64,000 bases of DNA from Candidatus Latescibacterota bacterium (lineage in GTDB: Bacteria > Krumholzibacteriota > Krumholzibacteriia > WVZY01 > JAKEHA01), in NCBI GenBank assembly GCA_963707635.1, contig OY970173.1:1120001-1184000 (forward strand), given 5' to 3'. Of this stretch, positions 1,627 to 51,307 are shown in pieces. Each line of letters begins with the position of its first letter. Position 1 is the stretch's first letter. The notes under the pieces were generated by a model, which worked only from the letters and a program-made list of their open reading frames with translations, was not told where the DNA came from and did not search any database. The position numbers and the translations under genes are program-made.

Positions 1627-1636
1627 GGAGAACGCG

Positions 1637-17260: not shown

Positions 17261-17378
17261 AGACTCTTCTGCGAAACAAAGCCAATCAAACTCGTATCAA
17301 GCTGTGGGTTAGTCTCGGGTGGCAGAATCGAATCCAATGTGACCTCGAAAATTGCGCGTGACAGTCGCAGGCAGGACG

Positions 17379-17672: not shown

Positions 17673-17812
17673 AGTGTCAGGAGAATCTATCAGGAGCAAT
17701 ATTTCAGTAGACGATAATTGCGGATAGGGCTATCTTGTATTGTATAGGGTGACAGGACGAGCATTTCGAGTTCATTCTTTAAGTTGGGCGCGAGTCCGTA
17801 AAAAAGGAATGG

Positions 17813-18523
17813 ATGACCTTGAAGAAACCATTCGTGGTTCCGCTCATTCTGACTTCAATCCTGGGTGCTCACTGGGCGCTCGCGCAGCACTTAAGCGCCG
17901 ATCCGACCGGTGGGGCGCGAGTGATCGCGATCGAGGAGTTGAAGAAACTGCCGGCCCGCGTTACTGCAGTTCCAAGCCATTCGCCTTTCTTTGTTTCTGA
18001 TCGCAAGCTTCTCGAATCGGCGACCCTGGGAGAGCCATTTGTTTTCTACTGGCCCGATAGCACGTTTCTGACCCATTACAAGAACGCGGAAGCGGGCCAA
18101 ATACTCCGGTATTTTCGGAAGAGTGTGCTCTTTCCCGTGCATGCCGGGGAACGGATGCTTGGAACCATTAGCGTTCAAGTGAATGAGAACGGAGTGTGGG
18201 TGACGGGACCCCGCACAGTAGGTGACCGCGTTGTGAATGCCCTGGAGGAGTGTGGCCGCACTGCTGCCGTCACTGCTGGCCAGAGGCTTTCAATACTCGA
18301 TACGGGGTTCGCGGGCAAATTTGGTGTTGTTGAGGATGAAACAAGAATCATTGCAATGATGCCACTAGACGAATGGACTCGCGAGCTTATTGAGTCTGCT
18401 ATTTCACCCAATGGAGAGAGCGCTTGGATCCTTCCTGAACAAGGGTTTCCAATCATCCAAGCGAAGGTGCGCGCCACCCGGGAGAGTGAACAGCTCCATC
18501 ATGAGCCAATCGACGATCGCTAG
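17813..18523 (+). CDS. Secreted hypothetical protein, possibly a protease propeptide-like partner
   Basis: Signal peptide ending WALA; LGEPF..Y and FPV...G..LGTISV motifs. Confidence 0.6.
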   Translation: MTLKKPFVVPLILTSILGAHWALAQHLSADPTGGARVIAIEELKKLPARVTAVPSHSPFFVSDRKLLESATLGEPFVFYWPDSTFLTHYKNAEAGQILRYFRKSVLFPVHAGERMLGTISVQVNENGVWVTGPRTVGDRVVNALEECGRTAAVTAGQRLSILDTGFAGKFGVVEDETRIIAMMPLDEWTRELIESAISPNGESAWILPEQGFPIIQAKVRATRESEQLHHEPIDDR

Positions 18524-18533
18524 TCCGGTCAAG

Positions 18534-21386
18534 ATGGTCGTTCGCTGTCGATCGCGTGCGCAATTGATAGCTCCTCTGGTCATTGCACTAGCGGTCGCCC
18601 CGAGTGTTGCGCGAGCTCAATTCAACATAATCTGCGGCGTAGTGTGGACACAAGCGATCCACCAGGAATGGGGCGAACCCTGGTGCACGTTTGCGTGTTT
18701 GGAGTTCGTGGCGAACGAGCTTCTCGGTTACGGTGGTGACCAGTGCGATTTTGTGGTCGAGGCCTGCGCCCGTATCCCAAAGCTAACATGCGATGGGAAC
18801 TGTTGCGGCACCTACTGCCATGGTTACTACTTGACCGGAAATGAGCTCAGCTTATTCATGGACTACGTAGGGTTCCAACGGCATGGTGGTGGCATGGTCT
18901 CATGGCAGTCGGGGCCGACCGCCACACCGTCCCAACTGTACGATGCCATATGTGACGAGAACTATCTGATTTCAGCACACAACGAGATGGGAAGTCCGCT
19001 TGGTCACGCCGTTGTGGTTTGCGTCTTCGATATTGATTCTAACGAGATCACAATAATGGACCCGTATTGGGGCTCTTACCAGCAGGAGATAACGTTCGCG
19101 GAGCTCAAGTCGGGTAGCTACCAAGGCGGGTTTGGTTTACCCATGATAGCGTTTCTCCGTGTAGGCTACTTCGACCCGAAATTCGTTGGCATTGATGACA
19201 TAACCAGGCCTTGGGTGGACGAGCACGTGCCCACCCAGTCGGTAACACTAAAGTACGGAGTATACTGGACCGCCGATCCGGATGATTCAACCTGCTTATA
19301 CATATCCGACAATCCATGGGGTCCCGTGCGCCGAGTCCTGGCGACCAAGCCTCTCAGTCAAGCGTTGCCGTACGGTGAGGAGGCGATTGTATCGATTACG
19401 GATGTCCTGCCATACGTTGAACACGCTTTTGTCCGCTATTTCCTAGATCACGGGCCCGGTGGGTTCGCGGCTCTCCGTTCGCCAGACGACCTCAAGAACT
19501 GCGTCAACAATCCAGTAGAGTTACTTGGGTTCAACGTGGAGCGAGACACGTTGGACGCGCCCGACTTGCTTTCCTTGGTGCCCTCCGGGCCCGATCCGCA
19601 GGTCGGCATTCGGCTAGTTTGGGAACTGTCTGATGATGACGCGATCATTGACTACTACAATGTCTATCGTCAGGAGGACCTCGAGTACAACCCTGGTTGG
19701 ATTTGGCTCGCCTCGGTGCCACGCGGAACGAGTAGTTTCGTCGACGACGTGAACATATTCACGGGTGTGAATTATACATATCGGGTCTCAGCGGCTCACC
19801 ATGGCGGGAATCCCTCCGCTGGAAACGGACGAAAGGGTATCTACAACGACTTCAGTGAGCCTATCACCGGGGTCGCAAAGATGGGGGAAATAGCGAACAA
19901 TGAAACGTGGTCCGGAAACGTGTTCGCGACCGGTGATATCACGGTTCAGAGCGGAAAGACGTTGACGATAGCCGCGGGAACCCATATCTGGATCTGGCCG
20001 GTCGACACAAGCAATGCCGGAGTTGATCACGACCGGGTCGAGATCAAAGTCGATGGGACGCTGGTAGCAAATGGGGCCACTGCAAGTCCGATCGTATTTG
20101 AATCTTGGAACGGGCAACCGCAGACAACGCAAGACTGGTGGGGCATTTTCGTGAACGCGGGTGGTGACGGCGCGTTCGAGCATTGTGCCATTCGGAATAC
20201 CCGGTGGGGTATCGGAGCCAACGCACCGATCTCCGTCGTCGGCTGCACGATCGAGTCAACAGCGTATAGAGGCATCAACATCGCATCGGCAGGCACCGTG
20301 ATCGTAGACAACACGACAATCCGGGGCCCAGAGTACGGAATCAACGCGTTAAATGGAACGAACCTCATCCTTTCGAACTCGACCATCGAGGACTGCTCAT
20401 CGTACGGAGTGGCCCTCTACAAGGGTTCAAAGCTCAACGCGACGGAAACCACCTTTGATGGCAACGACATCGGCTTGTATCTCGCGCGTGAGACGACAGC
20501 GTGGGTTAAGGGGACGGTCCATGATTGCACTTTCACCAACAACACCGACGGCATTTGGATCGACGATGTCGGGGACTCTTCGGTGGTCATCGACGGCTGC
20601 ACGATCGATGACAACACGACGAGCGGAATCTACATCGAGGACAATGGCGACGTATCGATTACCGGTAACACGATCACAGGCAGCGCGGCGGGTGTGTTCA
20701 GCTACAACAGCAACCCCTTGATTCGCTCCAGGAACACGATTCAATACAACACGATCGGGATCAAGTGCGACAACTACTCGGCGGCGGTGGTCGAGTCGTG
20801 CACTGTGACCCAGAACTATCGGGGGGTCTGGGTCGGATGGGAATGCACGACGGACCTGGGGAGCTGGGGCTCCGAGTCGAGTGGCCGCAATATCCTAAAG
20901 CCCAACACGGCGCGCTACGTCATGAACTTTTCGGGCTATCCCGTGAGTGCCCTTTGGAACTACTGGCCCACGAACCCGCCCACTAACTGTATCCCGGAAA
21001 GTGCCAAGTTCTACGGCCCCGTGGACGCGTCCTTCCCGCTCTGCACAGCACCCTCCCTGTCGCCGCTTGCATGGCAATTGCCGGCGCCGGACGGGGATGC
21101 GCCGGAGCGTTTCAGCCTGAGTCAGAATTACCCAAACCCGTTCAACCCAACGACAACAATTGCCTATCAGGTCCCGAGACCGGGAGGCGACGTGGATCTA
21201 GCGCTTTATGACGTGACCGGCAGACTCGTTGGCACGTTGGTTCGTGAACATAAGGTACCAGGGTCCTATGTCGTGACGTGGGATGGTCGCGATCGAAGCG
21301 GTGAGCCGGTGGCAACGGGAGTGTATTTCGTGAAGATGCGGGCGGGGTCGTTCGTGGAGACGAAGAAGATTGTGATGCTGAAGTAG
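18534..21386 (+). CDS. Secreted multidomain protein: papain-like cysteine peptidase, FN3, right-handed beta-helix, FlgD-Ig C-terminal domain
   Basis: Signal peptide ..SVARA; Q.....WC, GHAVVV and IMDPYWG (Cys-His-Asp); YNVYR/YTYRVSA; N..GI repeats; QNYPNPFNP...WDGRD...VATGVYF..KKIVMLK. Confidence 0.8.
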   Translation: MVVRCRSRAQLIAPLVIALAVAPSVARAQFNIICGVVWTQAIHQEWGEPWCTFACLEFVANELLGYGGDQCDFVVEACARIPKLTCDGNCCGTYCHGYYLTGNELSLFMDYVGFQRHGGGMVSWQSGPTATPSQLYDAICDENYLISAHNEMGSPLGHAVVVCVFDIDSNEITIMDPYWGSYQQEITFAELKSGSYQGGFGLPMIAFLRVGYFDPKFVGIDDITRPWVDEHVPTQSVTLKYGVYWTADPDDSTCLYISDNPWGPVRRVLATKPLSQALPYGEEAIVSITDVLPYVEHAFVRYFLDHGPGGFAALRSPDDLKNCVNNPVELLGFNVERDTLDAPDLLSLVPSGPDPQVGIRLVWELSDDDAIIDYYNVYRQEDLEYNPGWIWLASVPRGTSSFVDDVNIFTGVNYTYRVSAAHHGGNPSAGNGRKGIYNDFSEPITGVAKMGEIANNETWSGNVFATGDITVQSGKTLTIAAGTHIWIWPVDTSNAGVDHDRVEIKVDGTLVANGATASPIVFESWNGQPQTTQDWWGIFVNAGGDGAFEHCAIRNTRWGIGANAPISVVGCTIESTAYRGINIASAGTVIVDNTTIRGPEYGINALNGTNLILSNSTIEDCSSYGVALYKGSKLNATETTFDGNDIGLYLARETTAWVKGTVHDCTFTNNTDGIWIDDVGDSSVVIDGCTIDDNTTSGIYIEDNGDVSITGNTITGSAAGVFSYNSNPLIRSRNTIQYNTIGIKCDNYSAAVVESCTVTQNYRGVWVGWECTTDLGSWGSESSGRNILKPNTARYVMNFSGYPVSALWNYWPTNPPTNCIPESAKFYGPVDASFPLCTAPSLSPLAWQLPAPDGDAPERFSLSQNYPNPFNPTTTIAYQVPRPGGDVDLALYDVTGRLVGTLVREHKVPGSYVVTWDGRDRSGEPVATGVYFVKMRAGSFVETKKIVMLK

Positions 21387-21398
21387 GGCGGTGCGTAG

Positions 21399-21962
21399 AT
21401 GATGGACTCAAGGAGACTTCTAGCACTGGCGTCGGCGTGGGTTGTCCTAACTGGGGCCGCCTCGGCACAGACACCAGGGAAGATCTCGATCATGATCCGT
21501 GGCACTGACGCGTCAGTGCACGCGGGCGAAAAGACGACTCTTGGGCAGTGCTACACGGTTCAGTATGCGCTACCGGACGATCTTACGAGCCAGCAGGTCG
21601 AGCGTGCGGTGTTGGAATTGTATGTCGATGTTCGAGCGAAGACCCGGGAGGACTACATCAACGAGGCTCCGATTCTTGAGGTCTACGCGCCGACGGAAGC
21701 ATTCGCAGGTGGCGTCGACCTGAAGAAGGTCGACATCGCTACGCGAGCTGGTCGACCGATCGCTCTTGGCGCGAAACGTCTTGTGCGCATCGATGTAACA
21801 AGAGTCGTTCGCGCGCATGCAAGCAAGACCTTGGCTAATTATGGGCTCGTGATCGGATCACTATCAGGAATGCGCGAAGGCGACTTCACGATTGTTGCAG
21901 ACATGTTTCCTGACGGGGCGATAGGACGGCTGAACATCTACACGAGTGATCCGGTCAAGTGA
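21399..21962 (+). CDS. Secreted hypothetical protein (DNRLRE-like beta domain)
   Basis: Signal peptide ..AASA; VERAVLELYV, IDVTRVVR, NYGLVI. Confidence 0.65.
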   Translation: MMDSRRLLALASAWVVLTGAASAQTPGKISIMIRGTDASVHAGEKTTLGQCYTVQYALPDDLTSQQVERAVLELYVDVRAKTREDYINEAPILEVYAPTEAFAGGVDLKKVDIATRAGRPIALGAKRLVRIDVTRVVRAHASKTLANYGLVIGSLSGMREGDFTIVADMFPDGAIGRLNIYTSDPVK

Positions 21963-21994
21963 CGACGGCGCTCCGGCGCGACGACGTCTCTCTG

Positions 21995-22026
21995 GAAGGG
22001 CCGCCTTCGGGTGGCCCTTCTACGTT
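21995..22026 (+). terminator. Putative intrinsic terminator
   Basis: GAAGGGCCGCC-TTCG-GGTGGCCCTTC hairpin; weak U tract. Confidence 0.6.
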
Positions 22027-26820: not shown

Positions 26821-28328
26821 GCGAGGGACGGAGCCAGGTCAGCGCCCTCGACGCCATCGACGCGCTGGGCAGCGACGACGGCCGCACACCCGAGGATCGC
26901 GCGTTCTTGAAGGCCCACGGCGAATCGCTGGTCATCCACCTGTTTGCGGCCAGCAAGACGCTGCGGCTCTACGACCTGAAGAACCGCGCGACGCAGCGCG
27001 CGCTCGCCGACGTGATGACCCCGCTGCGCAAGCTCCTCGAGCGCGAGGGGCGGGTCCTGCTACGCTCGTCCAACGAATTCCTGCTCCTGAACGAGTACCG
27101 CATCACCGTGGAGTCGCAGCACTACGGGCCGTTCGAGTACTGGGTCGGGGAAATGAAGAAGCGCGGCGTCGAAGCGATCGAGTTCGGCGCGGCCGCCGGC
27201 GGGGAAGAGGTCGCGACCTTCCTGCTGGAGTTCTTCAAGGTCGAGGCGGGCGAGGATGCCTGCGCGGAGGTCGAGCATCGCCTGAAGGCGGCGGGCGTGG
27301 ACACGATCGCGGTCACGCGCTACGTCGAGCGGGAGACCGTGCTGGCCGACGTGCGCCGGACCGTCACCGACGTACGCCAGGACAGCAACCGCGTCTACTT
27401 TCGCACGGTGGCGCTGATGGGGAACGTGCTGCGCACCGCGGAAGAGACCCACGTGCTCCAGGTGCGCAAGGCGAAGCGACTCACCCAGCAGATGGTCGAC
27501 ATCATCCAGACCGACGAGTCGATGCTGGTCGGGCTCGCGAGCATCCGGGACTTCGACGCGTACACGTTCGCGCACTGCGTCAACGTGTGCGTGCTGTCGA
27601 TGCTCATCGGCGACCGCATGCGCCTCGACAAGGCCGACGTGGCCCGGCTGGGGCTCACCGCGCTCATGCACGACATCGGCAAGACCTACATCCCGGCCAC
27701 CATTCTCAACTCGACGGGCAAGCTCACGGAGCGCGAGTGGGAGCTCATGAAGTACCACACCTTCTTCGGGGTGAAGGAACTCTCGCGCGTGAACGCGCTG
27801 CGCGAGGCGATCGACCCGATGTTCGTCTCCATCCAGCACCACGCCCAGTTCAACGGCAACGGGTACCCGCAGCGACCGGGCGGGTGGAAGCTGCGGCTCT
27901 TCAGCCGGATCGTCACGGTGGCGGACTACTACGACGCCATGACCGCCTACCGCGTCTATCAGAAGGAACCGATCACGCCGGACAAGGCATTACAGTTCAT
28001 CCTGCAAAACGCGGGCAACATCTTCGACCCCTTCATCGCGAAGGTGTTCATCCAGGCGATGGGGCTCTTTCCGGTGGGGACGATCGTGGAGCTGGATCGG
28101 GGAGAAATCGCCGTGGTCACGCGGCAGAACGCCGACAACCGGCTCCTGCACCGGCCGGTGGTGGAAGTGCTCCACACCGACGCCGGCGTGATGACGCGCG
28201 AGAACGTCGACCTCTCGGAGCGCGACCCCGCCGGCGGGTACAACCGCACCATCAAGCGCGCGCTCCACGAGTCGCAGGTCGGCGTGGACAAGCGCCTCTG
28301 CTTCCTCGCCGACGCGGCGGCCGACTAG
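26817..28328 (+). CDS. HD-GYP domain protein (cyclic dinucleotide phosphodiesterase-like)
   Basis: YTFAHCVNV, HDIGK, HH..FNGNGYP, ADYYDAMT..RVY, FDP; ATGA overlap with the HEAT gene. Confidence 0.9.
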   Translation: MSEGRSQVSALDAIDALGSDDGRTPEDRAFLKAHGESLVIHLFAASKTLRLYDLKNRATQRALADVMTPLRKLLEREGRVLLRSSNEFLLLNEYRITVESQHYGPFEYWVGEMKKRGVEAIEFGAAAGGEEVATFLLEFFKVEAGEDACAEVEHRLKAAGVDTIAVTRYVERETVLADVRRTVTDVRQDSNRVYFRTVALMGNVLRTAEETHVLQVRKAKRLTQQMVDIIQTDESMLVGLASIRDFDAYTFAHCVNVCVLSMLIGDRMRLDKADVARLGLTALMHDIGKTYIPATILNSTGKLTEREWELMKYHTFFGVKELSRVNALREAIDPMFVSIQHHAQFNGNGYPQRPGGWKLRLFSRIVTVADYYDAMTAYRVYQKEPITPDKALQFILQNAGNIFDPFIAKVFIQAMGLFPVGTIVELDRGEIAVVTRQNADNRLLHRPVVEVLHTDAGVMTRENVDLSERDPAGGYNRTIKRALHESQVGVDKRLCFLADAAAD

Positions 28329-29764
28329 TACTTCGGGAGCGCCGGGTCGATCTCGTCCGACCAGGCGTGGATGCCACCCTTCAGGTTCCACACCCGCTCG
28401 AACCCCGCGTCCTGCAGGAATTCCACCGCCTGCGCGGAGCGAATCCCGGTCCGGCAGTGCACCACGATGTCGTGCGCCGAATCCAGCTCGTGCACGCGCG
28501 CGGCCAACTCGCCCAGCGGAATCAACCGGCCCCCGATGTTGCAGATCTGGTACTCGTGCGGCTCGCGCACGTCGAGCACCACCACGTCTTCGCCGGCGTC
28601 GAGCCGGCGCTTGAGCTCCTTTACCGCCATTTCCGGAACCGCCACGTCGTCCTGAACCTCCTCGCCGCGAATGCCGCAGAACGCGTCGTAATCGATGAGC
28701 GCGTGGAGCGTGCGGTGCACTCCGCACACGGGGCAGTCGGGATTCCTCCGCAGCTTGAGTTCCCGAAAGCGCATCTTGAGCGCGTCGAACAGGAGCAGAC
28801 GGCCGCTCAACAGGTCGCCGGCCTGCAAGATCCACTTAATGGCCTCGTTGGCCTGGATCGCCCCGACGATCCCCGGGAGGACCCCCAGCACGCCGCCCTC
28901 GGCGCAGCTCGGCACCAGCCCCGGCGGCGGCGGCGACGGGTAGAGGCAGCGATAGCACGGGCCGTCCGCCGTCGCGAACACCGTGATCTGGCCTTCGAAG
29001 CGGAAGATGCTCCCGTAGACGTACGGCTTTCCGAGCAGCACGCACGCGTCGTTGACCAGGTAGCGCGTCGGAAAATTGTCGGTGCCGTCGACGACGATAT
29101 CATAGTCGCGGATGATGTCCAGCGCGTTGGCGCTGGTGAGCCTCGTCTCGTGCAGCACGAACTCGACTTCGGGGTTCAAGTCCGCCAGGCGCTCGCGCGC
29201 GGCGTGCAGCTTGGGACGCCCGACATCCTTGGTGCCGAAGGTAACCTGTCGCTGCAGGTTGGTGGCGTCGACCACGTCGAAATCGACCAGCCCGATGCGC
29301 CCCACGCCCGCCGCGGTCAGGTACAGCCCCGCCGGCGCCCCCAGCCCGCCGGTGCCGATCAACAGCACGCGCGCGCGCTTCAGCCGCAGCTGTCCCTCGA
29401 CGGCCACCTCGGGCATGATGAGGTGGCGGCTGTAGCGCTTCACCTCCTCGGGCGAGAGCCCCTCGACCGCGTAGACATTCGGCTTCGGCGACCCGCCCGC
29501 GATGGACGGGACGATGCTCACCACGTCGCCGGCGGCGAGCGTGGTCGCGTCCTGCGCGAGATAGCGCACGTCCTCGTCGTTCACGTACACGTTCACGAAG
29601 CTGCGGAGCCGGCCGTGCTCGTCGAAGAGGTGCTTCTCGAGGTCGCGGTGCTCGGCGACGAGGCGCTGGAGCGCCTCTCCGACCGTGCGCGCGTCCACGT
29701 CCACCGCGTCGCGCGCGCCGGTGAAACGGCGCAGCGCGGACGGAATCAGAATCCGGGTTGTCAT
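28325..29764 (-). CDS. moeB: Fusion: MoaD/CysO-like ubiquitin fold + MoeB/E1 adenylyltransferase + rhodanese
   Basis: 91-aa Ubl ending SIVPSIAGG, then RYSRH, GTGGLG, NLQRQ, DGTDNF, CYRC, SCAEGG, CPVC; rhodanese HCRTGIRS. Confidence 0.9.
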   Translation of the reverse strand: MTTRILIPSALRRFTGARDAVDVDARTVGEALQRLVAEHRDLEKHLFDEHGRLRSFVNVYVNDEDVRYLAQDATTLAAGDVVSIVPSIAGGSPKPNVYAVEGLSPEEVKRYSRHLIMPEVAVEGQLRLKRARVLLIGTGGLGAPAGLYLTAAGVGRIGLVDFDVVDATNLQRQVTFGTKDVGRPKLHAARERLADLNPEVEFVLHETRLTSANALDIIRDYDIVVDGTDNFPTRYLVNDACVLLGKPYVYGSIFRFEGQITVFATADGPCYRCLYPSPPPPGLVPSCAEGGVLGVLPGIVGAIQANEAIKWILQAGDLLSGRLLLFDALKMRFRELKLRRNPDCPVCGVHRTLHALIDYDAFCGIRGEEVQDDVAVPEMAVKELKRRLDAGEDVVVLDVREPHEYQICNIGGRLIPLGELAARVHELDSAHDIVVHCRTGIRSAQAVEFLQDAGFERVWNLKGGIHAWSDEIDPALPKY

Positions 29765-29774
29765 GGATATCACC

Positions 29775-30266
29775 TCAAGCACTCTCGGCGCGCGCTGCCG
29801 GGCCCCGGCCCGGCCCCTCGCCCGCGATGGGTTCGAACGTGAAGGCGTGGCGGTCGTCGTCCAGCACCCAGCTCGTCAGGTCGGCGGGTGTCTCTCCGGC
29901 GCGGCCGGCGCGCACCGAAATGATGACGTACGAGTACCACGGCAGCGCGTGCTCGCGGTCGTACTCCGACGGGCGCGCGGGATGGTCGGGATGCGAATGG
30001 TAGAACCCGAGCACGTCGAGCGCGCGCTCGCACGCCTCGCGTTCGATGGCCCGGTAATCGTCGGGCGTGATGAGAAAGCGACGCGGCGCGGCTTCGGCCT
30101 CGCGGCGGTTCTCCGCCGCGCGCAACGCGATTACCACGCGCGTCTCGCCGGCGCCCGCTGCCGACGGTTCGACGCGGCCCAGGAGCGCGCCGCAACATTC
30201 GTGCGGGTAGTCGCGCCGGGCGTGGTCGCGAATCGCTCCTACCAGGGCGTCGGGGATGTGGATCAC
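29775..30266 (-). CDS. JAB/MPN+ (M67, Mec-like) metallopeptidase
   Basis: YPHECCGALLG and YHSHPDHPARPSEYD; GTGA overlap with the cysM stop; RBS GGAGG. Confidence 0.9.
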   Translation of the reverse strand: MIHIPDALVGAIRDHARRDYPHECCGALLGRVEPSAAGAGETRVVIALRAAENRREAEAAPRRFLITPDDYRAIEREACERALDVLGFYHSHPDHPARPSEYDREHALPWYSYVIISVRAGRAGETPADLTSWVLDDDRHAFTFEPIAGEGPGRGPAARAESA

Positions 30267-31246
30267 GCCGGTTCCTCCGTACTCTCTTCGGGCAGCTCCT
30301 GCCAGAATCGCTCGTTTAAGTACTTCTCGCCGTGGTCGGGGAAGATGGTCACGATCATGGCCGGGCGGCCGGGCGGAATCCGCCGCGCCACCTCCAGGCA
30401 CGCCACCAGCGCGGCCCCGGACGACACGCCGACCAGCATTCCCTCCTGGCGAATCAGCCGCTTCACCGCGCGGTACGCGTCTTCGGTGCGCACCTCGATG
30501 TTTTGGTCGGCGAGCGACGGGTCGTAGATGGCGGGCACCCTCGCGCTCGGCATGTGCTTCATTCCTTCGAGCCCGTGAAACGGCGCGTCCGGCTGGACGG
30601 AAATGCACCGGACGCGCGGGTTGAGCTCGCGCAGGCGCCGCGTCGTGCCGGTGAAAGTCCCGCTGGTCCCGAGCACGCTGACGAAATGGGTGAGGCAGCC
30701 GGCGGTCTGATTCCAGATCTCCCACGCGGTTCCTTCGTAGTGGGCGCGCCAGTTGTCGTCGTTGTCATACTGGTTCAGGTACACATAGCGCTCGGGGTCG
30801 GCGGCGTAAATGGCCCGCGCTCGCTCGATGGCGCCGTCCGCGCCGAGACCGGGGTCGGTGAGGGTCAGGGTGGCTCCGAACGCGTGCAGGATCCGGATGC
30901 GTTCCGGGCTCGCGTTGGCCGGCAGTGTCAAATGGACCGGGTGGCCACGTGACGCGCCGATCATGGCGTAGCCGATGCCGGTGTTCCCCGAGGTGGCGTC
31001 CAGGATGGTGCGTCCCGCGGTGAGGCGGCCGGACTGCTCCGCGGCCAGGATCATCCGCAGCGCGGGCCGGTCCTTGACCGAACCGCCGGGATTGAGCCAC
31101 TCGGCCTTGGCGTAGATCGAGACGTGGGGAAGGTCGCGGTCGACCCGTTCTAATCGAAACAGGGGCGTCCGGCCGACTTTCGACAGGATCGACTCACTCT
31201 CGGACCCCTGGTTGGGCCGGATGAGGCGAAGTGGGATCGACAACAT
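30263..31246 (-). CDS. cysM: PLP-dependent cysteine synthase (CysM-like)
   Basis: GRTPL, KAEWLNPGGSVKDR, ATSGNTG, GTSGT, GVSSGA, FPDHGEKYL. Confidence 0.9.
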   Translation of the reverse strand: MLSIPLRLIRPNQGSESESILSKVGRTPLFRLERVDRDLPHVSIYAKAEWLNPGGSVKDRPALRMILAAEQSGRLTAGRTILDATSGNTGIGYAMIGASRGHPVHLTLPANASPERIRILHAFGATLTLTDPGLGADGAIERARAIYAADPERYVYLNQYDNDDNWRAHYEGTAWEIWNQTAGCLTHFVSVLGTSGTFTGTTRRLRELNPRVRCISVQPDAPFHGLEGMKHMPSARVPAIYDPSLADQNIEVRTEDAYRAVKRLIRQEGMLVGVSSGAALVACLEVARRIPPGRPAMIVTIFPDHGEKYLNERFWQELPEESTEEPA

Positions 31247-31499
31247 GGCAGGCGCATGGCGATATCGGACTTCTTTGGTGCGATTTAGCCGTTTCAAAAA
31301 CGCGCCCCCCAGGCGCGCACCGCAAAGCATAGCACCGGTTTCCCGCTCCCGCAAGATCCTGGGCGGCCCGGCGGGCCCGCTTCATGCTCAAAACGGCGTG
31401 GAACCTGCTGCAGCGGCAGCGTATAATACCGATGCCGCCCCCCGGACGAGGGCCATCCAGCCGGTATCGTTACTCATTGAAAGGAAACGGCTTCGAAAA

Positions 31500-32552
31500 A
31501 TGACCTCCGCGAGAAACCGTACGAGAAATGTGCTCGTCAGTACTGCTGTGTGGCTCGCCGCGGCCGTTGCCTCCGGATCGGGAGCCCAGGAAGCGGCGAA
31601 GAGTGCCTCCGGAGAGGCCTCCGTCGAGATTCCGAAGATGAGAATCGACCTCGGCAAGGTCTACGAGCGCGACACGTACGAGTACAACTTCGTCGTTCGC
31701 AACAAGGGCAGCGCGAACCTCGTGATTGACGTCAAGCCGGGGTGCGGGTGCACCGCGGCCAGGTTCGACAGCGTGATCGCTCCCGGCAAGGAGGGCAACA
31801 TCGCGCTGATCGTCGACGGCCACCGGGTGGACGGGGAGTTCACGAAGCAGGCGACGGTCGTGACCAACGATCCTAAGTACCCGGAGCTGATGATCTTCGT
31901 GGAGGGATCGAAGATTCCGTTTCTGACCGTCACGCCGCCGGGGATGATCTTCCTGCAGGGGCTCTACGGAGAGCCGGTCGAGCAGGAGCTTACCATTGTG
32001 TCCAACGAGGAGGGTCTGGATCTGAAGGTGCTCTCCATCCGCTCGGACATGGACGACAAGATCAGCTACGAGGCGAAGCCGGGTGCGAAGAAGGGTGAGT
32101 ACAGGCTGCGCGTGAGCAAGAACCCCAAGCTCCCGACGACGTCGGCGTACGGTTCGCTTATCGTCACCACCAACAGCACGCGCCACCCGGAGGCGATCCT
32201 GCAAGTGCGAGTGTTGACGAAGGGTTCGATCAGTGTCAGCCCCAATGTCCTCAACTTCGGCGCGGTCAAATTCGCGGAAGGGGACACTCGCGCCGAGCCC
32301 GTGTCGCGGTACGTCATGCTGACCAAGACGACGGCGGGCCGCTTCCAGATTCAAAACGTCACCGTGGACAATCCACACTTCGTCGCCAAGGTCGAGCCGA
32401 TCAACGCGGGCGAAATCTATCGCGTCAACGTGACCTTCACGCCGCCGGTGAAGAGGACGAAGCGCCAGAACGAGAGGGCGGAAATGATCATTCTTACCGA
32501 TGACGAGCAGGCGCCGTCGATTAGCGTCCAGCTCGTGGCGCGGACGATGTAA
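31500..32552 (+). CDS. Exported DUF1573-domain protein (Cys form, CGC motif) with further Ig-like domains
   Basis: Signal peptide; F.VRNKG..NL.I..VKPGCGCT....IAPGKEG.I; K..TV.TNDP. Confidence 0.85.
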   Translation: MTSARNRTRNVLVSTAVWLAAAVASGSGAQEAAKSASGEASVEIPKMRIDLGKVYERDTYEYNFVVRNKGSANLVIDVKPGCGCTAARFDSVIAPGKEGNIALIVDGHRVDGEFTKQATVVTNDPKYPELMIFVEGSKIPFLTVTPPGMIFLQGLYGEPVEQELTIVSNEEGLDLKVLSIRSDMDDKISYEAKPGAKKGEYRLRVSKNPKLPTTSAYGSLIVTTNSTRHPEAILQVRVLTKGSISVSPNVLNFGAVKFAEGDTRAEPVSRYVMLTKTTAGRFQIQNVTVDNPHFVAKVEPINAGEIYRVNVTFTPPVKRTKRQNERAEMIILTDDEQAPSISVQLVARTM

Positions 32553-32577
32553 CACAGGCGTTGCGAGGAGTGCAGAG

Positions 32578-33612
32578 ATGAAAAGTCGCTACCTGGCTAC
32601 CGTGCTCGTACTGGCAATTGCGCTGCCGGGGGTAAGTTCCGCGCAGGACGACAAGCAGAAATCGAAGGGCCCCAAGCCGGTGATCGAGATTCCCGACATG
32701 ACGTTCAACCTCGGCACGGTCTTCGAGCGCGCCAAGTATGACCACACCTTCACGGTGCGCAACCGGGGCAACGGCGACCTCATCATCGAGGACGTGAAGC
32801 CTGGGTGAGGATGCACCGTGGCCAAGTTCGACAAGGTCATCCCTCCTGGTCAGGAGGGGAAAATCGAAGTTTCGCTCAACGGTGAAAAGGTGCACGGCAC
32901 GTTCAGCAAGACGGCGACCGTGACGAGCAACGATCCGGTGCACACGCACATCACGCTGGCTATAGAAGGGACCGAGATCCCGTACCTCAACATCGTGCCG
33001 GAGGGAGTTGTGTATCTCCATGGCCGCTACGGCGAGGTCATCGAGAAGACGCTGAAGATCACGTCGAACGAGGAGGACCCGAATTTCAAGATAACGAGCG
33101 TGACCTCCAACGTCGACGACAAGGTGACGTACCGCGTCGAGCCCGGCGCGAAGCCGGGCGAGTATGCGCTCCACGTGTTCAAGAACTCGAAGCTGCCGAC
33201 GATGTCGACGTTCGGAAATCTGTTCATCCACACCAACAGCCAGAACGCCCCCGAGACCACGCTACCGGTGCAGATAATGACCAAGGGGTCGATTTCGGTC
33301 AGCCCGACGTCGGTGAACTTCGGCGTGTTGAAGTTCACGGACGAGAACGGCCCGGGAACGCCGGCGACGCGCAGCGTGGTCGTGTCGAAATTGACGGGGC
33401 AGTTCTCGATCAAGGAAATCACGGTGAACAACCCCGAGTTCGCCGCGGGGCTCGAGCCGGTGACGCCGGGGCAGCAGTATCGAATCCAGGTGACATTCAC
33501 GCCTCCCACCCGAACGGCGTCGGGGCAGACCGAGTTCGCGGAGATGGTCCTCCACACCGACGATCCGCAGGAACCGGAGCTCCGCGTTCAGCTCATCGCA
33601 CGCGCCAGGTAA
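32578..33612 (+). CDS. Exported DUF1573-domain paralog with in-frame TGA (codon 77), probable selenoprotein (UGC motif)
   Basis: RBS GAGGAG and signal peptide. Reads DVKPG-TGA-GCTVAKFD against DVKPGCGCTAARFD in the upstream paralog. Homology continues in the same frame to the C-terminus. Confidence 0.8.
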
Positions 33613-33627
33613 CGCCAAAGGAAGTTC

Positions 33628-34680
33628 ATGAACAGGAACGTCATGATAGCGGTGGGGCTCGTGGTGGTCGTGGTTGCCGGCGGGATGCTGGTCGCGGGCC
33701 GGAGCAAGGAGGCGCCGGTGGATGCGGTTGCCGCGTCGGCCCAGATCAAGGATGAGGGGACGAAGGCGCTCGGCGAGCCGCCGACGGCGAACGTCACCCT
33801 GCCGCCCGGCGCCAACGCGTCCGCGGTGTACGCGGCGCTCACCGAGCAGATCAAAACGGTTTCCCAGCAGGCCATGTCTTCAGAAGCGCCGGATCTGCGG
33901 ACGCGGGCGTTCATGGAGATCGAGGCCAAGCTGATCGCGTTCCGCAAGGCCTACCCGGGTACGCCCGAAGCGCTCGACGCCGCATTCCAGCTCGGCACCA
34001 TGGAGTTCGGCATGCAGAGGCCGGACCAGGCGCTCCCGTATCTAGTCGAGTTCGTCGCGAAGGCGAACGAATCCCTGCACGAACAGGTGGGCTACGCGCG
34101 CTTCTATCTCGCGGAGATTTATCGCGGGCAGGGAAAGTACGACGCCGCCGAAGGCGAGTACAAGCTGGTGATTTCGAAGTACAAGGACGTCAATCCGCGC
34201 CTCACCCAGTACGCGCAGACCAACCTCGACGGCCTCACGGCCGAGCGCAAGATCGCGGTGGGAGCGGAGCCGGTTGCGTTCAGCGTGACCAGCATCGACG
34301 GCAAGAAGCTCTCGCCGGCCGACTACAAGGGTAAGGTGCTGCTCATCGATTTCTGGGCCACCTGGTGCGGTCCCTGCGTCATGGAAATGCCGAACGTCAA
34401 GAGCGTCTACAGCCGGTACCACGCGAAGGGTTTTGAGATCGTCGGCATCTCGCTGGATCAGTCGCGCGACAAGCTCGACGCATACCTCCAGCAGCAGCAG
34501 ATCGAATGGCCGCAGTACTTTGACGGCAAGTGGTGGAGCAACGACGTCGCCGTGAAGTACGGGATTACATCGATTCCCACCACCGTGCTCATCGACCGAA
34601 AGGGAAAGATCCGTTACAAGACCCTGCGCGGGAAACAGCTGGAAAAGGCCGTGCAGGAACTCCTGGACGAGGAAGTCTGA
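33628..34680 (+). CDS. Membrane-anchored TPR + TlpA-family thiol-disulfide oxidoreductase
   Basis: N-terminal TM segment, TPR repeats, GKVLLIDFWATWCGPC, GISLD, IPTT.LIDRKG. Confidence 0.9.
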   Translation: MNRNVMIAVGLVVVVVAGGMLVAGRSKEAPVDAVAASAQIKDEGTKALGEPPTANVTLPPGANASAVYAALTEQIKTVSQQAMSSEAPDLRTRAFMEIEAKLIAFRKAYPGTPEALDAAFQLGTMEFGMQRPDQALPYLVEFVAKANESLHEQVGYARFYLAEIYRGQGKYDAAEGEYKLVISKYKDVNPRLTQYAQTNLDGLTAERKIAVGAEPVAFSVTSIDGKKLSPADYKGKVLLIDFWATWCGPCVMEMPNVKSVYSRYHAKGFEIVGISLDQSRDKLDAYLQQQQIEWPQYFDGKWWSNDVAVKYGITSIPTTVLIDRKGKIRYKTLRGKQLEKAVQELLDEEV

Positions 34681-34704
34681 CCGTATACGCCCGCAGGGCG
34701 CACG

Positions 34705-34738
34705 AGGCGGCCGGGCACGCGCCCGGCCGCCTTTTTTT
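34705..34738 (+). terminator. Intrinsic terminator
   Basis: AGGCGGCCGGGC-ACGC-GCCCGGCCGCCT followed by a T run. Confidence 0.85.
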
Positions 34739-34742
34739 CTGA

Positions 34743-36828: not shown

Positions 36829-38688
36829 TCAGCCCGCGATCTGTTGCAGCCGGCGGAGAAATTCGTTCTTGTCGATGAACTGCACCGCGCGCAGGTCTTT
36901 CACTTCCGCGCCGCGCTTGTCGATGAAGATCAAGGTCGGCACGCCGCGAATGTCGTACTTCTTGCGCAGCGCGCGCACGTCGGGCGATCCGTGCTGGGTC
37001 AGGTCAGCCTTGAGGGTGATGATATCCTCCGCGGCGGCGACCACCTCGGGCTGGTTGAATGTCTGGTGCTCCAGTTCGCGGCACGGCAGACACCAGCTGG
37101 CGGAGAAATCGATCACGACCGGCTTGCCGCCCGCGATCGCGTCGGCGAGCGCCACCTCGGCGTAGGGAGCCCAGACGATTGCCTCGCCCTTTTCGCGCCC
37201 CAGCATGTGGCCGGGTGCGAGCATCACGTAGAGGCCATAAAGCGGCGCCGCCACACCCACGAATCGCCGGAACGCGGTGAACAAGAGCGCGGAGGCGCGC
37301 ACCCGCGACACGAAGCCGAGCCATACCCCGCCGACGACCAGCACGGCGCCGAGCAGGCCGAAATAGAGCGCGTCGTTGAGCAGCGGATCGAGGAAGTACA
37401 CCGCCATCGCGAGCAGCACGACGCCGAACAACCGCCGCACCCATTCCATCCACTCGCCCGACTTGGGGAGCTGGCGGATGTTGCCCGACGCCACCGCGAG
37501 CACGACGAAAGGAGTGCCGAGGCCCAGCGCCAGCACGAAGAACAGGGAGAAGCCGAGCAGCAGGCTCCCCCGTTCGCCGACGAAGGTAAGCAGCCCGAGC
37601 ACGAAGGGGCCGATGCACGGCGCGGCAACGATCCCCACCGTCAGCCCCATCAGGAACGAGCCCAGCGACCCCTGTTTCGCGGTTCCGGCCACGCCGGCAA
37701 GCCGGGTGGGCACGCGAATCTCGTAGTAACCGAACATCGACATCGCGAGCCCGACCATCACCAGCGAGATCGCGATCACGACGATCGGGTTCTGGAGCGC
37801 CGACCCGAACAGACTGCCGGTGAACGCGGCGAAGAGTCCGAGCGCCGAATAGGTGGTCGCCATGCCCAGCAGATAGAGCAGCGCCAGCATCACGGTGCGC
37901 GACCCGCGCCCGCGCGCCTGGCCGCCGAAGTAGCTCACCGTGATCGGAATCATGGGATACACGCACGGGGTCAGGTTCAGCGCCAGGCCGCCGATGAACA
38001 CCAGCACGAATCCGAACAGCAGCCCGCGCGAGGCGATGGCCTGCTGGAGGGTATTCTCCTCGCCGGCGCTGGCGCCGGCGCCGTCGCTGGTCTCCGCGTC
38101 CATCGTGCCCAGCGCGCCGAAATCGATCCGGTCGAAGACGTCCGCGTTCGCGAGATCGACCGCGTCGACCGGCGACGAAATCGCCACCGGGATGAACACC
38201 TCGGAGGTCTGCGGCAGCAGGCACTTCTCGTTATCGCAGGCCTGGTAGGTGACGATCGCCTTGAGCGCGGCCTGCCCGATCGGCGCGTCCCCGGCCACGT
38301 CGATCACGGCGCCGATGTAGACGGTGCCTTCGTAGAGCCGCAGCGGAGTTTCCGCGAATGCGAGCTTCTTCTCCACGTACTTCGGATAGACAATGCCGCG
38401 AACGGTGATGCCGGCGGGCGCTTCGATCGCGACCTCGGTCGGAATCAGGAAGTCTTCGGTCACCTGGTTCGCGTTCACGTGCCAGGGCGCGCGAATGGCA
38501 ATGGCGACTGCCACCTGCGCGGTGCCGCCCTGAGGGACGTTGGTGAGCGAAAGGTACCCGGTGGTCGTGATCGGCTCCGCGAACGGGTCGGCGAACGGCG
38601 TCGCGGTGTCGATGGCCCACGCGCCGCCGACCGGAGCCACCACCGCAAGCGCGGCGGCCAGGACCGCAAGTAAGAAAGTTTTTCTCAT
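36829..38688 (-). CDS. dsbD: Protein-disulfide reductase DsbD
   Basis: N-domain YQACDNEKCL; TM domain LTPCVYPMIP and AAPCIGP; PKSGEWM; thioredoxin domain ASWCLPC. Confidence 0.9.
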   Translation of the reverse strand: MRKTFLLAVLAAALAVVAPVGGAWAIDTATPFADPFAEPITTTGYLSLTNVPQGGTAQVAVAIAIRAPWHVNANQVTEDFLIPTEVAIEAPAGITVRGIVYPKYVEKKLAFAETPLRLYEGTVYIGAVIDVAGDAPIGQAALKAIVTYQACDNEKCLLPQTSEVFIPVAISSPVDAVDLANADVFDRIDFGALGTMDAETSDGAGASAGEENTLQQAIASRGLLFGFVLVFIGGLALNLTPCVYPMIPITVSYFGGQARGRGSRTVMLALLYLLGMATTYSALGLFAAFTGSLFGSALQNPIVVIAISLVMVGLAMSMFGYYEIRVPTRLAGVAGTAKQGSLGSFLMGLTVGIVAAPCIGPFVLGLLTFVGERGSLLLGFSLFFVLALGLGTPFVVLAVASGNIRQLPKSGEWMEWVRRLFGVVLLAMAVYFLDPLLNDALYFGLLGAVLVVGGVWLGFVSRVRASALLFTAFRRFVGVAAPLYGLYVMLAPGHMLGREKGEAIVWAPYAEVALADAIAGGKPVVIDFSASWCLPCRELEHQTFNQPEVVAAAEDIITLKADLTQHGSPDVRALRKKYDIRGVPTLIFIDKRGAEVKDLRAVQFIDKNEFLRRLQQIAG

Positions 38689-38702
38689 AGGTAGTGTGTC
38701 GA

Positions 38703-39188
38703 TCAATCCGGCGCCGACTGCGCCATTCGGTCCAGCATGAACGGGGCGAAGCGCTTGTAGATCGGTCGAAGGACCTTCCAGTAGCGCCTACCCTTGGGTT
38801 CCTGAATCCTGACCGCGGTGGCGATCGAAAGGGTGGCGGGGTCGGTTCCGCGATCCAGGATGTACGAGAGGAAGTACTGGAGACCCAGGGTATGGCCCTC
38901 GAACACCACTTCTCGCTCGTCGCGGTACACTTCGCGGTCCCCCTTGTGAAACGCGTGCTCGATCACGGTCTCGAGCTTGACATAGGTGGTGAATTCCAGC
39001 GGCACGCGGTAACAGTCGACGTAGTCGACCGGCCCCAGCTGGTTGGCGATGTAACTGTACGAAGGAACCGGAATCGGCACCACGTCGTGAGTGCCCGCGA
39101 CCCCCGCCATGATGAACACGCCGATGATGGCCGTGATCACCACTACGATCGCGATCACCACCACCGCTTTCAACACCGTGCCGATCAT
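38703..39188 (-). CDS. Hypothetical membrane-anchored protein (DUF2867-like)
   Basis: DYVDCY, GRRYW..LRP; coupled to neighbours by 4-nt overlap. Confidence 0.55.
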   Translation of the reverse strand: MIGTVLKAVVVIAIVVVITAIIGVFIMAGVAGTHDVVPIPVPSYSYIANQLGPVDYVDCYRVPLEFTTYVKLETVIEHAFHKGDREVYRDEREVVFEGHTLGLQYFLSYILDRGTDPATLSIATAVRIQEPKGRRYWKVLRPIYKRFAPFMLDRMAQSAPD

Positions 39189-46891: not shown

Positions 46892-47437
46892 ATGTCGCAC
46901 GGAACCCACGCACTCGTCGCCACCGGCAAGCCGTTCGCGTTCTCGCACGAGAACGAGGCGAAACTCGCCGACCTTCTCACCAAATACCCGACCAAGCGCG
47001 CGGTGGTCCTTCCGGCCCTGTGGCTGGCGCAGGAGCAGGAGGGACACCTGCGCATCGAATCGATGGAGTACGTGGCGAAGCGGCTCGAGCAGTCCGCCGT
47101 GTCGGTGTTCGCGGTGGTCGAGTTTTATACCATGTTCAAGACCGAGCCGATGGGGAAGCACCACATCCAACTATGTCGCACGCTCTCCTGCACCATGCGC
47201 GGGTGCGAAGACCTCCAGGGGCTGATCGAGCGCAAACTCGGCATCGGTCCCGGCGAGAAGACGCCCGACGGAACCTTCAGCTTCGAAACGGTGGAGTGCC
47301 TGGGGTCGTGCGGGACGGCGCCCATGATGCGGATGGACAAACGCTACTGGGAGAACCTCACGGTCGACAAGCTCGAGCGCATCATCGAGGCGTGCCGCCA
47401 GGGGCGCGACCCGTCGTCGGAGGACTTCAGCCGCTAA
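46892..47437 (+). CDS. nuoE: NADH-quinone oxidoreductase subunit E
   Basis: FYTMF, CRTLSC, ECLGSCGTAP. Confidence 0.95.
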   Translation: MSHGTHALVATGKPFAFSHENEAKLADLLTKYPTKRAVVLPALWLAQEQEGHLRIESMEYVAKRLEQSAVSVFAVVEFYTMFKTEPMGKHHIQLCRTLSCTMRGCEDLQGLIERKLGIGPGEKTPDGTFSFETVECLGSCGTAPMMRMDKRYWENLTVDKLERIIEACRQGRDPSSEDFSR

Positions 47438-47451
47438 CCGGTCGAACCGCC

Positions 47452-48777
47452 ATGTCCAAGAAGATCATCAGCAGCCGGTTCGACACGCCGAACAACCACA
47501 CCCTCGCCACCTACCAGGCGAACGGTGGCTATGGCACGCTCAAGAAGCTCTTCGCCATGAAGCCCGACGCCGTGACCGAGGAAGTGAAGCGCTCGGGGCT
47601 GCGCGGCCGCGGCGGCGCGGGCTTTCCGACCGGCATGAAATGGAGCTTCGTCCCCAAGTCCACCGACAAGCCGAAGTACCTGTGCGTGAACGCCGACGAA
47701 GGCGAGCCGGGGACGTTCAAGGATCGGTTGATTCTGGAGCGCGACCCGCACGCGCTGATCGAGGGCATCATCATCTGCTGCTTTGCGGTCGGTATCAAAA
47801 CCGCCTACGTCTACATCAGAGGCGAGTACGATTTCCCGATCCTGCGCTTCTCGGCGGCGGTGAAAGAGGCCTACGCGAGCGGCTTGCTCGGGAAGAACAT
47901 CAAGGGCTCCGGCGTGGATCTCGATGTCGTGGTGCACAAGGGGGCGGGCGCCTACATCTGCGGCGAAGAAACCGGCCTGATCGAGTCGCTCGAAGGAAAG
48001 AAGGGCCAGCCGCGTCCGAAGCCGCCGTTCCCGGCGGTCATCGGCGTGTTCGGCTGCCCGACCGTCGTCAATAACGTGGAGACCCTCGCCGCGCTGCCCT
48101 GGATTCTCGAGCACGGCGCCGACGCCTACGCCGCGATCGGCACCGACAAGAGCAAGGGCACGATGCTGTTCTCGATCTCCGGCATGGTCGAACACCCCGG
48201 CGTCTACGAGGCCGACTTCGGCGTGAACCTCTGGGACTTCATCGAGCAGTCGACCGGCGGGGTCAAGGGCGGGAAGAAGCTCAAGGCCGTGATCCCGGGC
48301 GGGTCGTCGGCGGCGATTCTCACCGCCGACGAAGCGCGCAGCGTGAAGCTCGACTACGAGTCCATCGCGGCCGCCGGGTCGATGGTTGGCTCGGGCGCCA
48401 TCATGGTGCTGGACGAAGACACGTGCGTGGTGAAGGCGCTGGAAGTGGTGCTGCGTTTCTACGCGCACGAGTCGTGCGGTCAGTGCCCGCCGTGCCGCGA
48501 AGGGACGTACTGGCTCTACGAGATCGTCCACCGGATCCGCACCGGCAAAGGACGGCCGGAAGACATCGACCTGATGCTGTCGATCTGCCCGGACATGCTC
48601 GGCCGCACCGTGTGCGTGCTCGCGGACTCCGCGGCGATTCCCGCGGCGAGCTACATCAAGAAGTTCCGCTCCGAGTTCGAGGCCTATCATCGACAAGGCG
48701 AACCTGCCGACGCGCACTCTCCACCCGGGCGGCGTCAATCTGGAAGCGAGAGCGCTGTAGCTGCCCGCTCTACTTGA
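47452..48777 (+). CDS. nuoF: NADH-quinone oxidoreductase subunit F
   Basis: GLRGRGGAGFPTG, NADEGEPGTFKDR, YICGEET, HESCGQCPPCREG. Confidence 0.95.
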   Translation: MSKKIISSRFDTPNNHTLATYQANGGYGTLKKLFAMKPDAVTEEVKRSGLRGRGGAGFPTGMKWSFVPKSTDKPKYLCVNADEGEPGTFKDRLILERDPHALIEGIIICCFAVGIKTAYVYIRGEYDFPILRFSAAVKEAYASGLLGKNIKGSGVDLDVVVHKGAGAYICGEETGLIESLEGKKGQPRPKPPFPAVIGVFGCPTVVNNVETLAALPWILEHGADAYAAIGTDKSKGTMLFSISGMVEHPGVYEADFGVNLWDFIEQSTGGVKGGKKLKAVIPGGSSAAILTADEARSVKLDYESIAAAGSMVGSGAIMVLDEDTCVVKALEVVLRFYAHESCGQCPPCREGTYWLYEIVHRIRTGKGRPEDIDLMLSICPDMLGRTVCVLADSAAIPAASYIKKFRSEFEAYHRQGEPADAHSPPGRRQSGSESAVAARST

Positions 48778-51117: not shown

Positions 51118-51242
51118 GACTGCACCCCGCAGGTTGAAGGCACAGCAACTCACTGAGTGTAGCGTACCAACGGCCGCGACCGCGATCTGAAACTATCCCC
51201 GTGGCGCTCCGATGTGGGTATTGCCACACGCTTTGTCCTGCC

Positions 51243-51302: not shown

Positions 51303-51307
51303 CACCA

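What the first reader, a model, noticed from the sequence alone, without database searches (positions are those of the whole stretch)
31500..34738. Probable exported selenoprotein: tandem Cys and Sec paralogs of a DUF1573 protein with a TlpA reductase
Seen: two full-length collinear paralogs. Gene 1 reads DVKPG-C-GCTAARFD; gene 2 reads DVKPG-TGA-GCTVAKFD (TGA at 32806-32808) and stays homologous in frame for another 267 codons with no other lesion. The ORF track splits it in two. A TPR-TlpA gene (WCGPC) and a strong terminator follow. Known: UGA aligned to a conserved Cys of a redox-type motif is the hallmark of selenocysteine, and DUF1573 has no established function. Inference: a 344-aa signal-peptide-bearing UxC selenoprotein with a CxC twin, forming an extracytoplasmic thiol/selenol redox or metal-handling module, possibly selenium-tunable. 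I cannot verify whether this family is already catalogued as a selenoprotein.
Basis: partly seen in the sequence, partly recalled or inferred. Interest (0 to 1): 0.88.

Follow-up and report, generated by a model that had tools for sequence, protein, structure and literature searches.

The report
Exported DUF1573 selenoprotein with cysteine twin
The apparent stop codon inside this gene is very likely read as selenocysteine, in an exported protein of a selenoprotein family listed since 2007; the extras here are a likely redox partner next door, an unusually distant RNA insertion signal, and duplicate copies that appear to have swapped selenium for sulfur several times.

Summary
The genome has selA, selB, selD and tRNA-Sec. 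At this codon, 44 of 81 homologous genes have TGA, 37 have Cys, and none has TAA or TAG. A covarying GG-loop hairpin follows the TGA in Sec copies (96.6% paired) but not in Cys copies (53.7%).

The family is not new: DUF1573/OS_HP2 (UGC motif) has been listed since 2007 and is NCBIfam NF041425. This scan has already found it on other genomes, once with the same two-hairpin signal.

This locus adds three things:
(1) A TPR-TlpA gene follows it in 33 of 35 genomes, and 10 of 40 long homologs are redoxin fusions. It is likely a periplasmic Ig-fold U-x-C redox protein fed by TlpA and DsbD.
(2) Cys copies are nested among Sec copies and arose repeatedly, mostly in tandem arrays (AU p=1.5e-5), although reviews call Sec-to-Cys change rare in bacteria.
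(3) The SECIS loop lies 38-39 nt from the UGA, just beyond the 16-37 nt consensus, behind a second conserved hairpin.

Substrate, activity and selenium tuning are untested.

The parts
31500..32552 (+). Gene 1: Cys paralog, 350 aa, signal-peptide-like N-terminus, DUF1573 domain with C82-G-C84 (its only cysteines), two further Ig-like domains
   Evidence: PF07610 70 bits; NF041425 78.3 bits, under the cut-off of 100; signal peptide judged by eye
32578..33612 (+). Gene 2: Sec paralog, 344 aa, U77-G-C79 (its only Sec and Cys), three ASH/PapD-like Ig domains, signal-peptide-like N-terminus
   Evidence: PF07610 90.4 bits; NF041425 100.3 bits against a cut-off of 100
32806..32808 (+). In-frame TGA, predicted selenocysteine codon
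32818..32840 (+). Proximal hairpin (6-bp stem 32818-32823/32835-32840, variable 11-nt loop), conserved in Sec copies; predicted to fold out the long spacer
   Evidence: 97.1% paired in 29 Sec copies, weak covariation; 66% in 25 Cys copies
32841..32858 (+). Distal hairpin with GGUC loop at 32848-32851: candidate SelB-binding SECIS, loop 38-39 nt after the UGA
   Evidence: 96.6% paired, 3 pairs with changes on both sides, 0/500 shuffles; 53.7% in Cys copies
33628..34680 (+). TPR-TlpA: N-terminal hydrophobic anchor, TPR region, thioredoxin-like domain with WCGPC; predicted electron donor
34704..34742 (+). Intrinsic terminator-like hairpin and T run closing the three-gene unit
36829..38706 (-). 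DsbD-like membrane electron transporter (DsbD_N, DsbD_TM, thioredoxin), 2.1 kb from tlpA; candidate upstream donor (start uncertain)
   Evidence: also near the gene in 4 of 6 wide family/order-level loci, in 0 of 5 class-level loci

Best explanation
Gene 2 very likely encodes a full-length exported selenoprotein of the known DUF1573/OS_HP2 family, predicted to act as a periplasmic Ig-fold redox protein whose U-G-C motif would be kept reduced by the adjacent TPR-TlpA, with gene 1 a later cysteine duplicate. Shown here: the TGA is conserved; Sec machinery is present; RNA structure after the TGA is specific to Sec copies; the model has three Ig-like domains with the motif in a turn between two strands of domain 1; tlpA adjacency is conserved and redoxin fusions exist; Cys copies do not form one clade. 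Inferred: SelB binds the GG loop at 32848-32851, and the proximal hairpin shortens the effective distance; the protein is exported by the Sec pathway; the motif cycles between selenol/thiol and a selenenyl-sulfide; electrons run DsbD to TlpA to DUF1573 and on to envelope proteins that the PapD-like domains hold, as in disulfide isomerisation or repair; the Cys twin supplies the same function without selenium. Confidence by step: Sec readthrough about 0.97; redox coupling to TlpA about 0.65; chaperone-type isomerase or reductase role about 0.4.
For: Machinery: selA, selB, selD over their cut-offs (SelD itself has a TGA), and tRNA-Sec at 71 bits. Four other likely Sec genes of known families were found: Prx, MerB-like, SelW-like, UshA-like. 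Codon census: 30 TGA, 32 Cys, 0 other stops in 62 genes, plus 14 TGA and 5 Cys in later loci. SECIS stem: against 59; 6 of 6 pairs in 14 of 14 hold-out Sec copies against 2-5 of 6 in 5 Cys copies. Synonymous identity at codons +1 to +17 is 0.75 against 0.47-0.51 elsewhere in Sec copies; Cys copies show no peak. tlpA follows in 33 of 35 genomes and in 0 of 9 loci of distant DUF1573 paralogs. 10 of the 40 homologs longer than 400 aa carry a redoxin domain. CxC is kept in 125 of 137 representatives that cover the motif. Precedents read as passages: CsgC, an Ig fold with a redox-active CxC at -139 mV (PMC3173608); the ScsB-TlpA-PprX relay (PMC3322552).
Against: There is no protein-level or RNA evidence. 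The SECIS loop lies 1-2 nt outside the published 16-37 nt range and 10-20 nt farther than in the genome's five other Sec genes (19-29 nt). Four of the 10 fused redoxin domains showed no full CxxC. G031 has the Sec gene with no tlpA within 13 kb. DsbD was absent from all 5 class-level loci and 2 of 6 wide loci. The top-50 fold matches are non-redox ASH/PapD/MSP domains, and neither CsgC nor nDsbD is listed. The best solved relative, 2QSV, lacks the CGC in the aligned stretch. No substrate is identified.
Confidence: 0.65

Rival explanations
1. It is a real selenoprotein, but the U-x-C is a soft-metal or metalloid site (Cu(I), As(III), Hg) on an Ig scaffold, and TlpA only keeps the ligands reduced.
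For: A vicinal dithiol on an exposed turn suits soft-metal binding (general knowledge, recalled). An earlier scan note ties another DUF1573 Sec gene to arsenic islands (e1-9998374, not tested here). The genome has a MerB-like Sec gene elsewhere.
Against: No metal-resistance or metal-chaperone gene was recognised among the neighbours examined. No third invariant Cys or His appears in the family alignment.
Confidence: 0.22
2. It is a real selenoprotein, but mainly a structural or adhesin-like Ig-repeat protein whose U-x-C bond is structural or regulatory, and tlpA is linked only by gene-order inertia.
For: All top fold matches are ASH/PapD/cadherin-type scaffolds. The surrounding gene order (moeB, GT4, FAH) is also conserved within the order.
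Against: Redoxin fusions occur in distant homologs. The tlpA link persists in class-level loci where the other neighbours were not found. Sec and its SECIS are retained across the class.
Confidence: 0.1
3. The TGA is a true stop, a pseudogene lesion or an assembly error, and two separate peptides are made or none.
For: GTG at 32818 could start a 264-aa ORF, and 26 of the top 120 database homologs are annotated that way.
Against: The same TGA occurs in 44 genes across several orders and is never TAA or TAG. It splits one predicted Ig domain. The RNA structure is specific to TGA copies. Purifying selection is alike on both sides.
Confidence: 0.03

Closest known systems
DUF1573 domain-containing selenoprotein = OS_HP2 (PF07610; NCBIfam NF041425; motif UGC/UxC)
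   Same: Same domain, same motif and the same Sec position. Listed in PMC1976440 (section 12 and passages read), PMC2398784, PMC9312934 and PMC13188914 (table passages read).
   Different: The passages read give only a name, a motif and an accession. They give no function, TlpA partner, export, three-domain form, tandem Cys twin or SECIS architecture. Supplements and figures were not seen.
Bacterial SECIS consensus (bSECISearch model, as summarised in PMC13188914 section 5, passages read)
   Same: [quoted passage not shown]
   Different: The loop is 38-39 nt from the UGA against 16-37 nt, and a second conserved hairpin precedes it. The review itself says some bSECIS elements fall outside the model.
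[quoted passage not shown]
   Same: Periplasmic beta-sandwich with a CxC (CsgC) dithiol on a loop.
   Different: A functional analogy only. CsgC's motif joins the BC loop to strand C; here it follows the third strand. Neither protein is among the Foldseek matches listed. This protein is ASH/PapD-like, has three domains and uses Sec.
ScsB/DsbD to TlpA to substrate relays (Caulobacter PprX; PMC3322552, passages read)
   Same: A membrane-anchored TlpA with a DsbD-class gene nearby.
   Different: The proposed acceptor is an Ig-fold protein, not a peroxiredoxin, and this TlpA carries a TPR region.

Membership tests
DUF1573/OS_HP2 selenoprotein | PF07610 domain above the gathering score | tested here: met
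   90.4 bits against 26.1
DUF1573/OS_HP2 selenoprotein | NF041425 at or above the curated cut-off | tested here: met
   100.3 against 100 for gene 2 read through, a marginal pass; the Cys twin scores 78.3, below it. In the six-frame genome search, 0 of 151 genomes passed the cut-off.
DUF1573/OS_HP2 selenoprotein | UGA at the first position of a U-G-C motif aligned to Cys in homologs | tested here: met
Bacterial selenoprotein | SelA, SelB, SelD and tRNA-Sec in the genome | tested here: met
Bacterial selenoprotein | Conserved downstream stem-loop with G in the first two loop positions | tested here: met
Consensus bSECIS | 16-37 nt between UGA and apical loop | tested here: not met
   38-39 nt; range from PMC13188914
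Bacterial selenoprotein | Selenium incorporated in the protein | not testable with these tools
   needs 75Se labelling or MS
CsgC/nDsbD-type redox Ig fold | Structural match to CsgC or nDsbD with the dithiol at the same place | tested here: inconclusive
   Not among the Foldseek matches listed; the wider structural search was not obtained
TlpA substrate | Electron transfer from TlpA | not testable with these tools
   Only context and fusion evidence

The most novel reading that the evidence does not exclude
DUF1573 is a non-thioredoxin-fold periplasmic selenoenzyme: a PapD-like chaperone carrying a selenenyl-sulfide, served by a dedicated TPR-TlpA. It is decoded by a distinct two-hairpin SECIS class, in which a proximal hairpin folds out 23 nt to bring a too-distant SelB loop into reach. 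The lineage has repeatedly hedged against selenium shortage by duplicating the gene in tandem and reverting one copy to cysteine.
Probability: 0.3. Interest if true: 0.62.

Novelty: new variant of a known kind. Interest (0 to 1): 0.38.

Why it matters
The family is on selenoprotein lists, but no function was given in any passage read. The conserved TlpA partner and the fusions give a testable hypothesis, and the Cys twin can be expressed without Sec engineering. The Sec/Cys pairs are a natural control set for an out-of-range SECIS that strict SECIS scans would be expected to miss. They also add a family to the short list of bacterial Sec-to-Cys reversions. Practically, gene callers truncate this gene: 26 of the top 120 database homologs start just after the UGA.

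Tried and rejected
Complex prediction of TlpA (55-350) with the Cys twin (38-350): no answer, score 0.00, controls not folded. It is no evidence either way.

Sequencing runs: no RNA holder listed. Contigs of 4 DNA runs were laid. Three short pieces cross the TGA and no change at 32806-32808 appears in the rows shown, but 93 rows were hidden and the pieces are mostly from relatives, so this is not used as evidence.

PDB sequence search with the single protein found nothing significant. Profiles found only 2QSV, of unknown function, and HYDIN/FAP47. The VIA-align structural search was not obtained. The ESM Atlas returned only DUF1573-type clusters. Rfam found no family at the locus. The promoter scan found no sigma-70 site, although a TATAAT stands at 31422-31427.

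A single-sequence folding z-score does not separate the copies: the Cys twin's 80-nt segment folds better (z -3.3) than the Sec copy's (z -1.9). The per-gene synonymous-shuffle test reached p<=0.05 in only 11 of 30 Sec copies and 2 of 32 Cys copies. The case therefore rests on the comparative tests.

The first genome scan, which demanded a GGTC loop, missed SelD and Prx. The careful tree did not finish, so quick trees were used. One search had a faulty pattern and was redone.

Loss of Sec machinery as the cause of all-Cys arrays was rejected: of the 6 all-Cys genomes, 5 have selA, 5 have selB, and all have at least one.

Paper searches: 'DUF1573' gave 4 papers, whose DUF1573 mentions (three checked) are table rows only; PMC10682907 was seen as a listing only. 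'OS_HP2' gave 2 relevant papers among 20 listed of 21. 'Krumholzibacteria' with 'selenoprotein' gave 1, listing only. Subscription papers and supplements were not seen.

Full report
OBSERVATION. Gene 1 (31500-32552, 350 aa) has C82-G-C84. Gene 2 (32578-33612) has TGA at 32806-32808 in place of the first Cys and runs open for 267 more codons, giving 344 aa with U77-G-C79. They are 49% identical over 316 residues, and these are the only Cys/Sec residues in each. A TPR-TlpA gene (33628-34680, WCGPC) and a terminator-like hairpin (34704-34733, z -5.85) follow. Both N-termini look like cleavable signal peptides, judged by eye. The closest named homologs are labelled Candidatus Krumholzibacteria by NCBI.

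IS THE TGA SELENOCYSTEINE? The genome (one contig, 96% complete) has selA (463 bits), selB (380), selD (376, with its own TGA) and tRNA-Sec (71 bits). A coding-potential scan gave four further likely Sec genes, which match Prx, MerB-like, SelW-like and UshA-like families. Among 60 relatives, selA was found in 55 and selB in 58. Of 62 homologous genes with a readable motif, 30 have TGA, 32 have TGC/TGT and none has TAA/TAG (six duplicate loci and one locus without a pattern match were left out). Fourteen loci fetched later added 14 TGA and 5 Cys. dN/dS downstream of the TGA is about 0.09-0.37 in 7 ortholog pairs, similar to upstream. Databases mis-call the gene: 26 of the best 120 homologs are about 264-aa pieces starting just after the UGA.

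THE RNA SIGNAL. A hairpin at 32841-32858 with loop GGUC is 96.6% paired in 29 Sec copies, with 3 pairs changed on both sides; 0 of 500 shuffles reached it and all slid controls were lower (L043, which has an extra codon, was left out). The same columns in 25 Cys copies of the same clade are 53.7% paired, at shuffle level. In loci fetched afterwards the 6-bp stem is complete in 14 of 14 Sec copies and has 2-5 of 6 pairs in 5 Cys copies. Related sequences inflate such tests, but the Cys copies are an internal control. The loop starts 38-39 nt after the UGA. The published model allows 16-37 nt and notes exceptions (PMC13188914, passages). The other five Sec genes here have candidate loops at 19-29 nt. 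RNAalifold also predicts a proximal 6-bp hairpin at 32818-32840. It is 97.1% paired in Sec copies and 66% in Cys copies, but covariation is weak: 1 pair, 37 of 500 shuffles. Synonymous identity is 0.91-1.0 at its stem codons (+4, +5, +9, +10) and 0.61-0.69 at its loop codons (+6 to +8); codons +1 to +17 average 0.75 against 0.47-0.51 elsewhere, with no peak in Cys copies. It is complete in 11 of 14 hold-out Sec copies. Inference: it folds out the spacer so that SelB on the distal loop reaches the ribosome. It begins only 9 nt after the UGA and might be partly unwound by the ribosome (recalled knowledge), so the role is unproven. An earlier scan note reached the same two-hairpin idea on another genome (e1-8722995); I saw it.

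EVOLUTION OF THE TWIN. In quick trees of 54 and 66 rows (8 distant or short rows left out), Sec copies occupy both sides of the deepest split, and Cys copies are nested, mostly in tandem arrays. The label needs 9-10 changes, at least 5 forced by well-supported branches. A single Cys clade is rejected, AU p = 1.5e-5; the group was defined by codon, but the test was run after I had seen a tree. Tandem Sec+Cys arrays appear separately in this genus, in G020, in G032 and in a genus of another order. In this genus 14 genomes show arrays: 8 keep a Sec copy and 6 are all-Cys, though all 6 keep selA or selB. The root is a midpoint. With distant paralogs included (mostly Cys, long branches) the deeper origin of Sec is unresolved. 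Sec-to-Cys change is described as rare in bacteria and mostly limited to FdhA and SelD (PMC1794560, passages; PMC13188914 section 10). 'Selenium-tunable' is not shown: the twin is predicted to share the operon, so any tuning would be at translation.

STRUCTURE AND FUNCTION. AlphaFold2 gives three beta-sandwich domains (pLDDT 88.7) with U-G-C in a turn between strands 68-75 and 80-84. Foldseek matches are ASH/PapD/MSP-type: HYDIN, CEP192, OCRL, pilus chaperones, and 2QSV of unknown function at TM 0.87 for domain 1. CxC is kept in 125 of 137 family representatives that cover the motif. The TPR-TlpA gene follows in 33 of 35 genomes of the ortholog clade; the exceptions are G004 (contig end) and G031. 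It was found in 0 of 9 loci of distant paralogs and in 6 more class-level loci fetched later. All 26 aligned TlpAs keep WCxPC. Of the 40 representatives longer than 400 aa (out of 150 listed), 10 fuse DUF1573 to a redoxin domain; 6 of these show a full CxxC. A DsbD-like gene lies 2.1 kb away here and in 4 of 6 wide family/order loci, but in none of 5 class-level loci. Precedents: ScsB to TlpA to PprX (PMC3322552, passages), and a redox-active CxC on an Ig fold in CsgC, with CGC motifs at -130 to -200 mV (PMC3173608, passages). Most likely mechanism, inferred: after export the U-x-C cycles as a selenenyl-sulfide, is re-reduced by TlpA from DsbD, and reduces or isomerises envelope protein disulfides held by the chaperone-like domains. 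Metal binding is the main rival.

WHAT IS KNOWN. Gene 2 passes Pfam DUF1573 and, narrowly, NCBIfam OS_HP2_seleno. OS_HP2 was reported in 2007 (PMC1976440, section 12), tied to pfam07610 with UxC in 2008 (PMC2398784, passages), and listed as DUF1573/UGC in the 2022 and 2026 reviews (passages). This scan's notes hold six earlier DUF1573 Sec findings on other genomes. In the searches I saw no paper giving the family a function, a TlpA partner, tandem Cys twins or this SECIS form; subscription papers and supplements were not seen.

VERDICT. A real selenoprotein gene (about 0.97) in a known family. The variant features are the TlpA coupling, the out-of-range two-hairpin SECIS and the recurrent Sec-to-Cys duplicates. 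Interest 0.38.

Noticed in passing
window 28325-31246 (-): Cluster divergent from the DUF1573 genes: PLP-dependent CysM-like enzyme, JAB/Mec-like protease and a ThiS-ThiF-rhodanese fusion. It resembles the sulfur-carrier route of cysteine synthesis (recalled). cysM or moeB borders the locus in most family and order relatives.
   Followed up: partly
G000:C1 positions 717992 (+), 1009790 (+), 1039947 (+), 1323852 (+), 431407 (-); loci L058, L061, L004, L059, L060: Five other in-frame TGA genes matching known Sec families: BCP-type Prx, UshA-like (PCGU, with a C-terminal cytochrome c-like match), SelD, MerB-like and SelW-like.
   Followed up: partly
window 151-2722 (+): Bacterial topoisomerase VI B and A genes.
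   Followed up: no
window about 15000-22000: Lower-GC stretch (0.55-0.61 against about 0.66) with few genes that fit the genome's codon model; one beta-helix protein with a FlgD-Ig tail; possibly an island.
   Followed up: no
window 47437-52897: nuo-like NADH dehydrogenase operon (names judged by eye from translations); about 2.5 kb between 48774 and 51308 had no well-scoring + strand ORF in my codon model.
   Followed up: no
L043 (G049:C32): Distant DUF1573 Sec gene with one extra codon before the hairpin, which would put the loop about 41-42 nt from the UGA; no tlpA within 5 kb.
   Followed up: no
P0151, P0192 and similar 540-580 aa homologs: Recurrent fusion of the three-Ig module behind an N-terminal domain of about 240 aa, with a weak matrixin-like hit in one.
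   Followed up: no
L075 (G113:C108): Array of three copies, two Sec and one Cys.
   Followed up: no
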